From Bacteroidota bacterium (GTDB lineage Bacteria; Bacteroidota; Ignavibacteria; UBA10030; UBA8401): DNA of 53,610 nucleotides. Where the stretch lies: NCBI GenBank assembly GCA_020052095.1, contig JAGVPT010000159.1, forward strand, positions 1-53,610. Direction: 5' to 3'. Of this stretch, positions 40,860 to 43,024 are shown piece after piece. Under the pieces are notes generated by a model, which was not told the origin of the DNA, searched no databases, and saw only the letters and a program-made list of their open reading frames with translations. The position numbers and the translations under genes are program-made. How positions within the stretch are numbered: position 1 is the stretch's first letter; the number at the start of each line of letters is the position of its first letter.

Positions 40860-41363
40860 CTACTTCTTCATCGGCTGCCAGACTACCAGCCCGACGATCG
40901 TGTAATACGACAACAATGCAATCATCGGGACGCCCGCTAATGCGGCAAGCCGATGGATAAACAGAACGCGGAAGTCCGTCAACGACGGGTTAAAAAAGAA
41001 ATCAAGCGAAATCATTTTCCAATCAAGGTAGAGCGTATAGAACTCTACGGGGGAAAACATGAAAAATAGGATTGCGCTCATCATGAGCCATCCGTTTTGC
41101 TTGAACGGAAGTGTTGTGGTACTCACGAAGAAAATCGCGCTGGCAAATGTTCCAAGATATCCGCCGATCACGATCACAGAACTGAGACTGATCAGCCGAA
41201 ACACCTCCCCCTCAAGTTCCGCATCCAGGTTTGTCTTGAACTGCAGCGTTCCAAAATTCAGGAGCTCGTTGCCGATCACGGCGCGGACATTAACGGCGCC
41301 CAGCCAAATAATTGAACTGACCATGAGCGCAAAGAGGGAAATCCTGGCAATCTGATTTCGCAT
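40860..41363 (-). CDS. Hypothetical membrane protein (about 4 TM)
   Basis: Four hydrophobic segments; C-terminal VVWQPMKK. Confidence 0.8.
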   Translation of the reverse strand: MRNQIARISLFALMVSSIIWLGAVNVRAVIGNELLNFGTLQFKTNLDAELEGEVFRLISLSSVIVIGGYLGTFASAIFFVSTTTLPFKQNGWLMMSAILFFMFSPVEFYTLYLDWKMISLDFFFNPSLTDFRVLFIHRLAALAGVPMIALLSYYTIVGLVVWQPMKK

Positions 41364-41473
41364 AAAGTAAAATTAGAACAATTCCCTCTGAGTTGCAACC
41401 TACCCAAAGAGTTTCATTCTCTTTGGGACAAATAGAGTCTCGTTGGTGGGCCCGTCGAGTCCTTACTAATGAT

Positions 41474-41888
41474 GTTACTTTCTTTCCGAGAAAGTCCCAA
41501 AGGGATCACTTCGGGAAAAGTAACCAAAGAAATCTTATCGAAATCGTAACGCACGGATTCAATCCCATCCGCACTTGCTGACAATTTCGGTGCGCCAAGA
41601 GGGATGAGGCCTTGTCCATTGAACCGAAGCACCGAAATTGAAACCCTCCGATTGAATCCTTCCCCCCCCCGCGCACCCAACGATTTCGACGCGACCGGAA
41701 CGATGCTGCGTTGATGAACTCGGAATCGGCGGCATGTGCGAGGGGGCGATGCGTGCGTTAAGAAAACGGCTGGCCTGAGAGGTGGCGTGTGTGAGTCGTT
41801 TTCTTCGGCAAGTGCGCGGCGAAGCATCGCAAGGGTTTCGATTCCGAAAAGCTCTCATTGCTTCTTTCTCTGGCATCAGAGAAAGAAG
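41474..41888. ncRNA. Candidate large structured ncRNA or non-autonomous mobile element (unassigned)
   Basis: Two related terminal hairpins plus at least six internal helices found by eye (see findings). No credible ORF. Confidence 0.55.
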
Positions 41889-41926
41889 GGAGTGGATAAG
41901 TTGTACCAAAATTAAAGACTACCAGC

Positions 41927-41941
41927 AGTGATGCCATGACT
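41927..41941. repeat. Half-site of the GTGATGCCATGACT REP family
   Basis: AGTGATGCCATGACT without a partner arm. Confidence 0.7.
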
Positions 41942-41962
41942 GGCCAAGACATCGCTTTTCAG

Positions 41963-43024
41963 TTACCGAACAATCAGTACCCGTACTTTGCTCCGCACTT
42001 TGATCGCGCCTTTGCCTTTGAGAATTGTTGCCATGGAGAGGTGCGTGCCGCGGACTTCTATGATCTGAACCTCTCCGACTCGGGCATCCTTCGTTCCAAG
42101 CGCCTCTTTTGTGGTGGGATCAAGGATAGGCTCTCCCTCCACGAACACCGTTAGGACATCACCCACCTGCACGCTTTCGTCCGAGCCGATGTTGAGAAAC
42201 ACCTGGTCAGAGTCGACGAGGACTATTTCTCCCCGCACAATCCGCCGAGTCAAACGAGTTGCGGTGTCTGCACCGGTCGAATCGATTTGGAGGGTTGATG
42301 ATACGACAGCGGCCTTTGTCTTCAATGCCGGTATAGCCTTTTCAAGTTTTCCAGCGAAGTCTTCCGCGCACTTCAGCATTGCCTCGCCGATAATTGTCTT
42401 ATTGAATTGATCGCCTCCAAAGTAGAGGTCATCGAGAGAAAAAAATTGATTCGTCCTTTCCGTTTGCTTGCCAAACAACGTGATGCCAAGCCCCTTATCT
42501 TTGACCACGCCTGACGCATCGCCTTCGTAGAGAGGAGAGATCTCCTTATTAGCGCGGAGTTCTGCGGCGTCGTAGATTGAAAACTGCAACTGGACTTCGC
42601 CGGCGAATGCCTCGTACCCCGCGAGTGTCTGTTCTGCCACGAGAAATCGTGAGACAGAGAATGTTTCCACCGAGCCAAGAATGATGTACCGTAAGTGGAA
42701 TTCTTCTGAATACAACTGAAGCGACTGTGCTGATCTCCGGTTTCTCCCATTAATGTGCTCTGCTGTATCAAAATATGCGACGGTAATCGGGCTGACAACG
42801 CCCGTCTGAAATCTAAGTCTGCAGTACGACGCCATGTAGCGCGGGATATCGTATCCCAACTTCCATTTGCCGCCAAATCCTGAATTATCTTCAATGGGTG
42901 TGAAGAGGAGCAGCGTGTCGGAACCAGCGAAATAGATTGATCTATTAGGTTCCTGCGCGAACGCGACGGGAGGGAAAAATCGAATAATGCACACAAAGAG
43001 GACAGCACACTTCAGTCTACTCAT
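41963..43024 (-). CDS. Exported protein with a CsgG/FlgT-like architecture (FlgT C-terminal-like domain)
   Basis: Signal peptide from MSRLKCAV; C-terminal GEIV.VDS.QVFLNIGS...VQVGDVLTVF..GEPILDPTT.E.LG...VGEVQI. Confidence 0.65.
   Translation of the reverse strand: MSRLKCAVLFVCIIRFFPPVAFAQEPNRSIYFAGSDTLLLFTPIEDNSGFGGKWKLGYDIPRYMASYCRLRFQTGVVSPITVAYFDTAEHINGRNRRSAQSLQLYSEEFHLRYIILGSVETFSVSRFLVAEQTLAGYEAFAGEVQLQFSIYDAAELRANKEISPLYEGDASGVVKDKGLGITLFGKQTERTNQFFSLDDLYFGGDQFNKTIIGEAMLKCAEDFAGKLEKAIPALKTKAAVVSSTLQIDSTGADTATRLTRRIVRGEIVLVDSDQVFLNIGSDESVQVGDVLTVFVEGEPILDPTTKEALGTKDARVGEVQIIEVRGTHLSMATILKGKGAIKVRSKVRVLIVR

What the first reader, a model, noticed from the sequence alone, without database searches (positions are those of the whole stretch)
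41474..41888. ~415-nt intergenic element with extensive nested base-pairing and related terminal hairpins: candidate large ncRNA or selfish element
Seen: a left hairpin GTTACTTTCTTTC-CGA-GAAAG^AAAGTAAC (13 bp once the 22-bp insert is removed) followed by CAAAGAAA, and a right hairpin CTTCTTTCTCTG-GCAT-CAGAGAAAGAAG (41861-41888). Domain 1 has nested helices 41538-47/41680-89 (10 bp), 41555-64/41650-59 (10 bp) and 41582-93/41629-40 (12 bp). Domain 2 has 41720-28/41839-47 (9 bp), 41746-52/41824-30 (7 bp) and 41760-71/41794-805 (12 bp with one G-U when read on +). An alternative pairing 41701-07/41823-29 would cross domain 2. There is no credible ORF, and I do not recognise it as RNase P, tmRNA, SRP, 6S or a riboswitch. 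Inference: a functional structured RNA, or an ssDNA-mobilised non-autonomous element. The single wobble weakly favours the + strand, antisense to both neighbours.
Basis: partly seen in the sequence, partly recalled or inferred. Interest (0 to 1): 0.8.

Follow-up and report, generated by a model that had tools for sequence, protein, structure and literature searches.

The report
Structured interior of an IS1-type MITE
The 415-base stretch is the folded middle of a roughly 520-base miniature transposon scattered through this Ignavibacteria-like genome and its relatives; that is a known kind of selfish DNA, but its hairpin-plus-three-helix building block is unusually well preserved across a whole bacterial order.

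Summary
The region folds better than all shuffles on both strands (z -4.8 and -4.4).

It is not a single-copy RNA gene. It is the interior of a dispersed repeat with 18 near-full copies in this genome. The repeat was found in 11 of 12 other genomes searched from the genus.

The whole element spans about window 41405-41923. The family has 16-18-bp terminal inverted repeats (GGTAGTG...) and 8-9-bp target-site duplications. Nine sites filled in relatives are empty in this genome. In a relative, a 4.3-kb element with the same ends encodes a distant IS1-family transposase. So this is a MITE moved by a DDE transposase, not a single-strand (HUH) element.

The interior consists of two inverted copies of a module: a perfect hairpin followed by a three-helix domain. 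The module occurs in 50 of 151 genomes of the order. Its helices covary strongly (27 of 32 pairs), and its unpaired CGCAC-type segments are conserved.

No Rfam family matches, and no RNA data were found. Whether the fold acts as RNA or as single-stranded DNA is open. The window's own copy has decayed ends, and no intact transposase was found in this assembly.

The parts
41405..41420 (+). Left terminal inverted repeat, decayed in this copy (about 10 of 16 letters match the genome's consensus GGTAGTGTCTCAYTTT)
   Evidence: Aligned with other copies. Homology of the orthologous flank in relatives ends at about 41398-41405. No target duplication is recognisable for this copy (read).
41421..41473 (+). 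Left subterminal region (..TTGGGACAAATAGAGTCTCGTTGGTGGGCCCGTCGAGTCCTTAC..)
   Evidence: Conserved among copies in the own genome, and joined to other cargo modules elsewhere.
41474..41525 (+). Left module hairpin (13-bp stem GTTACTTTCTTTC / GAAAGAAAGTAAC) carrying a nested insert
   Evidence: The hairpin varies with compensating changes in other genera.
41495..41516 (.). Nested 22-nt palindromic insert (TCCCnnnGGGATCnCnnnGGGA type)
   Evidence: Absent from 7 copies and present at other positions in other copies. The pattern matches 44 times counting both strands in the genome (about 22 sites, since the pattern is palindromic); a reversed control matches 0 times.
41526..41537 (+). Conserved spacer CAAAGAAATC.. 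between hairpin and domain
41538..41689 (+). Domain 1: three stacked helices (41538-47/41680-89, 41555-64/41650-59, 41582-93/41629-40), conserved unpaired segments and a variable end loop (41594-41628)
   Evidence: Matches model R1 at 155.6 bits.
41690..41719 (+). Linker between the two modules, with a small hairpin; the pair 41694/41715 covaries (A-T 31, T-A 15 of 70)
41713..41851 (-). Domain 2: an inverted, diverged copy of domain 1 (helices 41720-28/41839-47, 41746-52/41824-30, 41760-71/41794-805)
   Evidence: Matches model R1 on the minus strand over the whole model at 41.8 bits, E 8.5e-9. Covariation.
41861..41888 (-). Right module hairpin (12-bp stem), the inverted counterpart of the left hairpin
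   Evidence: The hairpin motif also occurs 36 times in the genome allowing up to 2 mismatches.
41889..41923 (+). Right subterminal region and right terminal inverted repeat (..CAAAATTAAAGACTACC, about 14 of 17 letters match the consensus CAAAATGAGACACTACC)
41361..41398 (-). Not part of the element: promoter-like boxes of the host's 167-aa gene (TTGCAA at 41393-98, TAATTTTA at 41368-75 on the minus strand), directly abutting the left end
   Evidence: The flank is conserved in 11 relatives' orthologous loci up to ..GAGTTGCAAAC. The promoter consensus is recalled, not tested.

Best explanation
The stretch is the interior of a non-autonomous DNA transposon (a MITE) about 520 bp long, at window 41405-41923.

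Elements of this family are cut and pasted, or copied, in trans by a distant IS1-family DDE transposase. That enzyme would recognise the 16-18-bp terminal inverted repeats (GGTAGTG[T/A]CTCA..) and duplicate 8-9 bp of target. The ends, the duplications and the transposase gene are shown. Mobilisation of the MITE by this transposase is inferred.

The interior is built from two inward-facing inverted copies of an older module. The module is a perfect 12-13-bp pyrimidine/purine hairpin, then the spacer CAAAGAAATC, then a stack of three helices with two internal loops. It is spread through the whole order, often on its own.

Compensating changes keep the module's helices paired. Its unpaired CGCAC-type segments are conserved. 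G.T outnumbers A.C when the module is read in its own sense. Together these indicate that the module folds as a single strand and that the fold is selected (shown).

What the fold does is inferred. I think it most likely serves the element's own spread or persistence. One route would be a single-stranded DNA or cruciform form that helps the ends meet or binds a host or transposase factor. Another would be that it tames transcripts running into the element from either side. I think a host RNA gene is less likely.

The window's copy is old and probably immobile. Its left end is decayed, it shows no recognisable duplication, its nearest relative in the genome is 86% identical, and only a transposase remnant was found in this assembly.
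For: Multi-copy repeat.
- 18 near-full core copies plus one divergent copy in the own genome, and about 20 fragments.
- Found in 11 of 12 other genomes searched from the genus.

Insertion polymorphism.
- For 28 filled loci in relatives, both flanks lay close together on one own-genome contig in 9 cases (gaps 79-388 nt). No element lay between them in any of the 9.

Ends.
- Filled versus empty alignment at L084/C262 shows the element bounded by GGTAGTGACTCATTTTGA...TCAAAATGAGTCACTAC, with TGGGATTGC on both sides.
- In relatives, 22 of 39 distinct end pairs have an 8-9-bp flanking repeat with at most 1 mismatch. A control displaced by 25 nt gives 1 of 39.
- In the own genome the figures are 10 of 50, against 0 of 49 for the control.
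- One complete relative genome holds 28 forward and 30 reverse matches to the end sequence. The reversed-pattern control gives 1 and 1.

Transposase.
- G001 1220945-1225229 has the same ends and the flanking repeat TGCAAGAG. Its 316-aa frame ends inside the right end.
- Pfam gives DDE_Tnp_IS1 at 28.5 bits (cut-off 24.1).
- The best NCBIfam hit is IS1 family, 66.9 bits, E 2e-18. That is below the 100-bit cut-off but ahead of IS6 (32 bits) and IS1595 (31 bits).
- The IS1 family is tabulated with ends GGnnnTG and 8-9-bp repeats (PMC10425158 Table 8 and PMC6807381 Discussion; passages read).
- Relatives of this transposase were found in 9 of 12 other genomes of the genus, with uninterrupted near-full frames in 6.

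Fold.
- Domain 1 (MAFFT alignment, 53 sequences): 95.1% of cells paired. 16 of 32 pairs changed on both sides, against 3.6 +/- 1.4 in shuffles (0 of 500 reach it) and 4-7 when the partners are slid.
- Domain 2 plus hairpin (44 sequences): 95.2% paired; 15 of 40 pairs, against 3.5 +/- 1.3 in shuffles and 2-9 slid.
- Order-wide, model-fitted alignment (40 sequences): 95.8% paired against 75.8% shuffled; 27 of 32 pairs, 212 cells, against 9-17 pairs slid.
- A blind mutual-information scan puts 41760/41805 first (G-C 32, A-T 26).
- G.T versus A.C is 42 to 15 in the order-wide set.
- The module was found in 50 of 151 genomes, 26 of 80 genera and 6 of 9 families.
Against: - The window's own copy shows no target duplication, and its left end matches the consensus at only about 10 of 16 positions.
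- No intact transposase was found in this genome. There is only a remnant on C155, 62-65% identical over about 70 residues. G002, G003 and G012 hold copies but gave no transposase match with this query. G006 has the transposase but no core copy.
- The transposase is a weak IS1 match. It is below NCBIfam's cut-off, and the IS6 family shares GGnnnTG ends.
- Outside the genus the module is often solitary, with no recognisable IS1-type ends. So IS1-type mobilisation does not explain the module's wider spread.
- Within the genus, G.T versus A.C shows no clear asymmetry on the + strand (55 to 64).
- The order-wide alignments were fitted to the model, which favours pairing and possibly G.U.
- Modules lie more often antisense than sense to the flanking genes. 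Two-module elements: 17 to 7 among 46. Solitary modules: 9 to 4 among 22 (crude ORF calls). This fits poorly with a role on read-through transcripts.
- A DDE transposase has no known need for such a fold.
Confidence: 0.8

Rival explanations
1. The hairpin-plus-three-helix module is a functional non-coding RNA, or a cis-acting RNA element, in its own right. The MITE merely carries and amplifies it. Candidate roles are a protein-binding or catalytic RNA, or an insulator or processing signal for neighbouring transcripts.
For: - The conservation pattern is the one seen in functional RNAs. Helices 2 and 3 covary: 10 of 10 and 11 of 12 pairs change on both sides order-wide. Meanwhile unpaired segments (AACGCAC, AAACSCTTC, CGCACACC-GCCG) stay at 90% or more.
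- G.T exceeds A.C 42 to 15 in module sense.
- The module exists without the IS1-type frame in other families.
- Because the two copies face inward, a transcript entering the element from either side meets a module in sense.
Against: - No Rfam family at gathering score in the window. Only chance-level hits, E 3.5-9.7, in 41300-42000.
- No conserved promoter is visible 5' of the hairpin, and there is no terminator-like signal at the hairpins.
- Neighbouring genes are unrelated to one another.
- Copy number is patchy, from 0 to at least 19 per genome, and insertions differ between species.
- G.U pairs are rare, about 3% of cells.
- Modules lie more often antisense to the flanking genes.
Confidence: 0.15
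2. The element is moved as single-stranded DNA by a Y1/HUH transposase, as a non-autonomous derivative of IS200/IS605 or a REP/RAYT-type repeat. The two related terminal hairpins would be the recognition sites.
For: - The two hairpins are related and perfect.
- The genome has 8 matches to the Y1 transposase family over its cut-off.
- The fold is evidently single-stranded and strand-specific.
Against: - The family has inverted terminal repeats and 8-9-bp target duplications. By my recall, IS200/IS605 and REP elements lack both.
- The two hairpins are in inverted, not direct, orientation.
- Of the eight Y1 genes examined in the own genome, five are flanked by other palindromes and three by none. 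None is flanked by these hairpins.
Confidence: 0.04
3. The fold has no function. The palindromy is a relic of inverted duplication of one module. The compensating changes arise from template-switch ('quasipalindrome') repair during replication, not from selection.
For: - Domain 2 is an inverted copy of domain 1.
- Stems are nearly perfect, with few wobbles. Within the genus, G.T and A.C are about equal (55 to 64), as expected for a DNA-level process.
- Template-switch correction of imperfect inverted repeats is an established mutational mechanism (recalled, not read here).
Against: - It does not explain why stems are 90% or more identical between copies and species while the end loops fall to 35-60%.
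- It does not explain why unpaired segments are conserved across the order.
- It does not explain why arms 85-130 nt apart stay complementary.
- It does not explain the 42 to 15 excess of G.T over A.C.
Confidence: 0.12

Closest known systems
Prokaryotic MITEs with structured interiors and modular build (Correia elements of Neisseria; BOX, RUP and SPRITE of Streptococcus pneumoniae; QMITE2 of Coxiella)
   Same: - Small and non-coding, with terminal inverted repeats and target duplications.
- Many copies, in intergenic DNA.
- Predicted stable stem-loops.
- Elements insert into one another.
- An IS110/IS1111-type element can sit inside a MITE. The review PMC10969869 describes these features (passages read). 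Further sources seen only as search listings and abstracts: PMC3184786, PMC2229807, PMC3049150.
   Different: - This family's ends are of IS1 type.
- The interior is two inverted copies of an about 200-nt module that also exists alone across an order.
- Compensating changes and conserved unpaired segments are documented here. I did not find that described for a bacterial MITE in my searches, though the library searched is partial.
IS1 family insertion sequences
   Same: - Ends GGnnnTG (here GGTAGTG).
- 8-9-bp target duplication.
- DDE transposase whose frame runs into the right end.
   Different: - The putative parent is 4.3 kb with passenger genes and one 316-aa frame.
- It scores below NCBIfam's IS1 cut-off.
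- It shares only its roughly 18-bp ends with the MITE.
Integron attC sites and other folded single-strand DNA sites
   Same: - Imperfect palindromes whose stems covary while specific unpaired bases are conserved.
- Strand-specific fold.
- Many copies, sometimes in the same orientation on both sides of single genes (G087).
   Different: - No RYYYAAC/GTTRRRY core sites (consensus recalled; by inspection only).
- No integron integrase nearby. The one recombinase-like neighbour has only the N-terminal SAM-like domain, and it has no relative in this genome.
- The module is much larger than an attC site.
REP/BIME elements with RAYT transposases
   Same: Perfect extragenic hairpins in many copies. 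RAYT-like genes flanked by palindromes are present in the same genome.
   Different: Those genes are flanked by other palindromes. This element has inverted ends and target duplications.

Membership tests
MITE (non-autonomous DDE-type transposon) | Terminal inverted repeats | tested here: met
   - GGTAGTGACTCATTTTGA / TCAAAATGAGTCACTAC(C) in G001: 28 forward and 30 reverse matches, against 1 and 1 for a reversed control.
- Own-genome consensus GGTAGTGTCTCAYTTT.
- The window's copy is decayed: about 10 of 16 on the left and 14 of 17 on the right.
MITE (non-autonomous DDE-type transposon) | Target-site duplication | tested here: met
   - 22 of 39 end pairs in relatives have an 8-9-bp repeat with at most 1 mismatch, against 1 of 39 in a displaced control.
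- 10 of 50 in the own genome, against 0 of 49.
- Not recognisable for the window's own copy.
MITE (non-autonomous DDE-type transposon) | Small, non-coding, many copies | tested here: met
   - About 520 bp.
- 18 near-full copies in the own genome.
- The only long frame (137 aa) has no Pfam match and is broken by indels in other copies.
MITE (non-autonomous DDE-type transposon) | Presence/absence at orthologous sites | tested here: met
   - 9 of 28 filled loci in relatives have both flanks adjacent in the own genome with no element between. The other 19 were not decidable.
- The window's site lacks this element in 11 relatives' orthologous loci; one of them (G009) holds a different but related hairpin element there.
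MITE (non-autonomous DDE-type transposon) | A related autonomous element with the same ends | tested here: met
   The G001 4.3-kb element has the same ends and an IS1-like transposase. None is intact in the own genome. Mobilisation in trans was not tested.
IS1 family (parent transposase) | Transposase matches the family model above its curated cut-off | tested here: inconclusive
   Pfam DDE_Tnp_IS1 scores 28.5 bits against a 24.1 cut-off (met). NCBIfam transpos_IS1 scores 66.9 bits against a 100 cut-off (not met, but the best hit).
IS1 family (parent transposase) | Ends GGnnnTG and 8-9-bp duplication | tested here: met
   Ends GGTAGTG; duplications of 8-9 bp. Family features come from PMC10425158 Table 8. 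IS6 shares the end motif (PMC6807381).
Known structured RNA family (Rfam 15) | Match at the family's gathering score | tested here: not met
   0 matches in the whole window. In 41300-42000 there were four hits with E 3.5-9.7, all far below gathering score.
IS200/IS605-type or REP/RAYT single-strand elements | No inverted ends and no target duplication; hairpins matching those beside a Y1 transposase gene | tested here: not met
   Inverted ends and duplications are present. The eight Y1 genes examined in the own genome are flanked by other palindromes or by none. The family features are recalled.
Integron attC site | R''/R' core sites and an integron integrase or attC array | tested here: not met
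   No core sites by inspection (consensus recalled). No integrase beside copies in the window's genome. No attC model was run.

The most novel reading that the evidence does not exclude
The hairpin-plus-three-helix module is an undescribed functional structured nucleic acid of Ignavibacteria-like bacteria. It would be either an RNA with a conserved CGCAC-rich binding or catalytic core, or a folded single-strand DNA site for an unidentified recombinase or replication factor. It spreads by riding in several kinds of mobile frames. The IS1-type MITE in this window is only one of its vehicles.
Probability: 0.2. Interest if true: 0.7.

Novelty: new variant of a known kind. Interest (0 to 1): 0.45.

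Why it matters
On its own terms this is selfish DNA of a familiar kind in an uncultured soil or groundwater lineage. It should not be annotated as an RNA gene.

Two things make it more than routine.

First, it links a MITE family to a distant, passenger-carrying branch of IS1-like elements in Ignavibacteria-like bacteria. My literature searches found no MITE described for that group.

Second, the interior module shows the signature usually reserved for functional RNAs: covarying helices plus conserved unpaired segments, held across at least six families of an order. I found no known RNA family, gene association or transcript for it.

If the fold serves transposition, it would be a rare case of secondary structure being selected in a DDE-type MITE. 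If it serves the host or acts as RNA, it is a new widespread structured element. Either way it gives a clean and testable system, because natural compensatory variants already exist.

Tried and rejected
- Rfam: nothing at gathering score in the window, and only chance-level hits in 41300-42000.
- Public runs: no RNA holder was listed. The four DNA runs laid gave only short contigs that break in the repeat. They showed no empty-site joint, only higher summed depth on the element. I draw nothing on expression or habitat from this.
- RAYT/Y1 link: 8 matches over the family's cut-off in the own genome, none flanked by these hairpins.
- Autonomous copy in the own genome: the only long end-bounded element (C155:4387-6308, 1.9 kb) holds a transposase remnant and other frames.
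- Recombinase lead: in G087 three modules bracket two frames. One frame (346 aa) has only a Phage_int_SAM_1 domain, one weak unrelated PDB hit and no relative in the own genome. Dropped.
- Common neighbour gene: the 10 flanking proteins of solitary modules belong to unrelated families or to none.
- Inter-domain complementarity (41548-54 with 41753-59, 41570-81 with 41805-16, 41640-47 with 41832-39, 41662-76 with 41735-46): I first read this as a possible pseudoknot. It is better explained by domain 2 being an inverted copy that reuses the same short motifs. Pair counts there are much poorer than in the local helices.
- Promoter at the left flank: I first suspected it was element-borne. It is conserved in relatives that lack the element, so it belongs to the host.
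- Terminator reading of the hairpins: no T-run and no terminator-like call at either hairpin.
- Viral contigs: 0 matches to the spacer-plus-helix-1 pattern. This was one exact pattern, so it is a weak test.
- Literature: no paper links MITEs with Ignavibacteria (the hits concern arthropod mites). One search for covariation in prokaryotic MITEs returned one unrelated paper. A search for 'ISMhu11' found nothing. Supplementary files were not consulted.
- Earlier-notes look-ups by place and by the domain sequence returned nothing.

Full report
**The observation**

The region folds better than every dinucleotide shuffle on both strands. As RNA, z is -4.83 on + and -4.39 on -. As DNA over the whole element, z is -3.09.

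The left hairpin is a 13-bp hairpin split by a 22-nt insert at 41495-41516. Seven copies elsewhere in the genome lack the insert.

A 137-aa frame does exist on the minus strand. It has no Pfam match and is broken by indels in other copies.

67 of 70 copies have G-C there.

**It is a dispersed repeat**

The stretch recurs in the window's own genome (3.9 Mb, 281 contigs). There are 18 near-full copies of the core at 77-86% identity, one divergent copy and about 20 fragments. Many lie at contig ends, so the true number is probably higher.

It was found in 11 of 12 other genomes searched from the genus at 70-79% identity, with up to 25 or more matches in one complete genome. Record titles of matching public MAGs say Bacteroidota or 'Chitinophagaceae'. 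Earlier notes of this scan call the genome Ignavibacteria-like (unchecked).

Rfam has no match.

**Boundaries and mobility**

Alignment of the copies shows that conservation extends beyond the finding, to about 41405 on the left and 41923 on the right.

I took 28 loci in relatives that hold the element and looked for both flanks in the own genome.
- In 9 cases both flanks lie next to each other, with gaps of 79-388 nt and no element between. The other 19 were undecidable.
- One filled/empty pair shows the exact limits: GGTAGTGACTCATTTTGA ... TCAAAATGAGTCACTAC, with TGGGATTGC on both sides.

End pairs were then scored for flanking repeats.
- In relatives, 22 of 39 distinct end pairs have an 8-9-bp repeat with at most one mismatch. 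A control displaced by 25 nt gives 1 of 39.
- In the own genome the figures are 10 of 50 against 0 of 49. The loose end pattern used there also picks up chance pairs.

The orthologous site of the window's copy lacks this element in 11 relatives' loci. Flank homology stops at about 41398-41405.

The window's copy has a decayed left end and no recognisable duplication.

**The likely driver**

In the complete genome G001, a 4.3-kb element has the same ends (GGTAGTGTCTCAGTTTGA) and the flanking repeat TGCAAGAG. It encodes a 316-aa protein whose frame runs into the right end.
- Pfam assigns DDE_Tnp_IS1 just above its cut-off.
- NCBIfam's best hit is IS1, below its cut-off but well ahead of IS6 and IS1595.
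- The IS1 family is tabulated with GGnnnTG ends and 8-9-bp duplications (PMC10425158 Table 8 and PMC6807381 Discussion; passages read).
- The parent shares only its ends with the MITE.

Relatives of this transposase occur in 9 of 12 other genomes of the genus, with uninterrupted near-full frames in 6. In the window's genome only a C-terminal remnant was found, inside a 1.9-kb end-bounded element on C155. This fits the absence of young copies there.

The link is imperfect. Three genomes hold copies but gave no transposase match with this query. One genome has the transposase but no core copy.

A single-strand (HUH) mechanism is not supported.
- The ends are inverted and make duplications.
- The two hairpins are inverted relative to each other.
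- The eight Y1-transposase genes examined in this genome are flanked by other palindromes or by none.

**Anatomy of the interior**

The core is two modules facing inward. Each module is a perfect 12-13-bp hairpin with a pyrimidine-rich first arm, then the spacer CAAAGAAATC, then three stacked helices with two internal loops and a variable end loop.

A covariance model built from domain 1 matches domain 2 on the opposite strand over its full length (41.8 bits, E 8.5e-9). So domain 2 is an inverted, diverged copy of domain 1. This also accounts for the long-range complementarities between the two domains.

Short versions of about 130 bp still carry remnants of an inserted module. They are therefore deletion derivatives, not ancestors.

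Small hairpin modules (22 nt and about 33 nt, the latter in both orientations) are inserted at different places in different copies.

**Is the fold selected?**

Across 70 copies the stems are 90% or more conserved, while end loops drop to 35-60%.

Covariation was counted on three alignments.
- Domain 1, sequence-only (MAFFT): 16 of 32 pairs change on both sides, against 3.6 +/- 1.4 in shuffles and 4-7 when partners are slid.
- Domain 2 plus hairpin, sequence-only: 15 of 40 pairs, against 3.5 +/- 1.3 in shuffles and 2-9 slid.
- Order-wide, 40 sequences fitted to the model: 27 of 32 pairs in 212 cells, with 95.8% paired against 75.8% in shuffles and 9-17 pairs when slid. Because these alignments were fitted to the model, the counts lean towards the structure.

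The model finds the module in 50 of 151 genomes of the order, in 26 of 80 genera and 6 of 9 families, with 1 to at least 19 copies each. The scoring cap limits the upper figure.

Helices 2 and 3 change sequence freely. Yet the unpaired segments AACGCAC, AAACSCTTC and CGCACACC-GCCG stay conserved.

Outside the genus the module is often solitary, with no recognisable IS1-type ends. In one genome nine copies are about 95% alike, which indicates recent spread by an unknown route.

**Which strand, RNA or DNA?**

In the order-wide set, G.T outnumbers A.C 42 to 15 when modules are read in their own sense.

Within the genus the + strand shows 55 to 64 overall. Re-read in module sense, the counts are:
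- domain 1: 31 to 26;
- domain 2: 23 to 20;
- right hairpin: 15 to 4.

So the module's sense strand looks like the folded one. The two modules of one element would then fold on opposite strands.

That suits a single-strand DNA or cruciform form. It also suits transcripts entering from either side. It does not suit one long RNA.

Several points count against a role on read-through RNA.
- Modules lie more often antisense than sense to co-directional neighbours: 17 to 7 among 46 two-module copies and 9 to 4 among 22 solitary modules. These counts rest on crude ORF calls.
- There is no terminator-like signal at the hairpins.
- Neighbouring genes are unrelated to one another.

No RNA run was listed for this sequence. 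The DNA contigs laid on the region showed only that it is repeated.

**Verdict**

The finding is real. It is best described as the interior of an IS1-type MITE, a known kind of selfish element. The window's copy is old and probably immobile.

What is unusual is the interior module. It is order-wide, its helices covary, its unpaired motifs are conserved, and it has no Rfam family, no associated gene and no known function.

I commit to the MITE reading at about 0.8. I think the fold most likely serves the element itself. I leave about 0.2 for the module being a functional structured RNA or single-strand DNA site in its own right.

It shares short words with this one. It agrees with my reading but is not independent evidence.

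Noticed in passing
window 41495-41516; also inside other copies (own genome C123, C108, C45, C98, C131, C216): A 22-nt palindrome of the form TCCCnnnGGGATCCCnnnGGGA is inserted at three or more different positions in different copies of the element. The pattern matches 44 times on both strands of the genome (about 22 sites); a reversed control matches 0 times. Longer variants centred on GGGATCCC occur in relatives. How such tiny palindromes insert is unexplained.
   Followed up: partly
own genome copies C148, C45, C201, C131 (left side) and C22, C98, C97, C267, C131, C216, C124, C254 (right side): A roughly 33-nt module (CTCAGCCAAAGGCTGATGAGCCTCYGGCTCAAA) is inserted in either orientation, next to the left or the right hairpin of the element.
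   Followed up: no
L119 = G001:C1:2875900-2877900: A 376-aa IS110-family transposase (Pfam DEDD_Tnp_IS110 plus Transposase_20) lies between two ends of a MITE copy. An IS110-type element seems to have inserted into the MITE, as described for IS1111 in QMITE2 of Coxiella.
   Followed up: partly
L118 = G001:C1:1220600-1225700: The IS1-like element is 4.3 kb long. Besides the transposase it carries an HTH_3 plus Peptidase_M78 (IrrE-like) protein of 358 aa and a 221-aa protein with no Pfam family, so it is a passenger-carrying IS.
   Followed up: partly
own genome C155:4387-6308: A 1.9-kb element has identical 16-bp ends (GGTAGTGCCTGAATTT) and an 8-of-9 flanking repeat. It holds a remnant of the IS1-like transposase C-terminus and a 208-aa frame that I did not analyse.
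   Followed up: partly
window 41361-41398 (minus strand) and orthologous loci L030-L040: The left flank holds promoter-like boxes (TTGCAA .. TAATTTTA) only a few bases upstream of the ATG of the 167-aa gene. They are conserved in relatives that lack the element. Left flanks of several other copies show similar boxes reading away from the element, so insertion or retention just upstream of promoters may be favoured. The promoter consensus is recalled.
   Followed up: partly
L034 = G009:C19:280872-284548, the site orthologous to the window's insertion: At the same intergenic position, another species holds a different but related hairpin element: the same type of CTTTCTCT..AGAGAAAG hairpin and a ..TGAGACAC end, with a different interior. 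This suggests repeated use of the site.
   Followed up: no
L140 = G087:C7:21234-24395: Three modules in the same orientation bracket two frames. One frame is a 346-aa protein with only a Phage_int_SAM_1 domain. The layout recalls a cassette array, but the protein has no relative in the window's genome.
   Followed up: partly
L027 = G011:C111:32295-35658: A fragment of the IS1-like transposase gene (residues about 230-308, with one TGA) abuts the left end of a MITE copy, as if the MITE had landed in its own putative parent.
   Followed up: no
own genome C86, C125, C6, C237, C93, C254, C251, C201: The same left and right ends also frame a different cargo: a roughly 85-nt module (..AAAAACCACCCCTGGCGC..GGGGTGGTGGCAAAC). 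The GGGGTGGTGGCAAAC motif occurs 27 times in the genome and often sits just left of another copy's left end.
   Followed up: no
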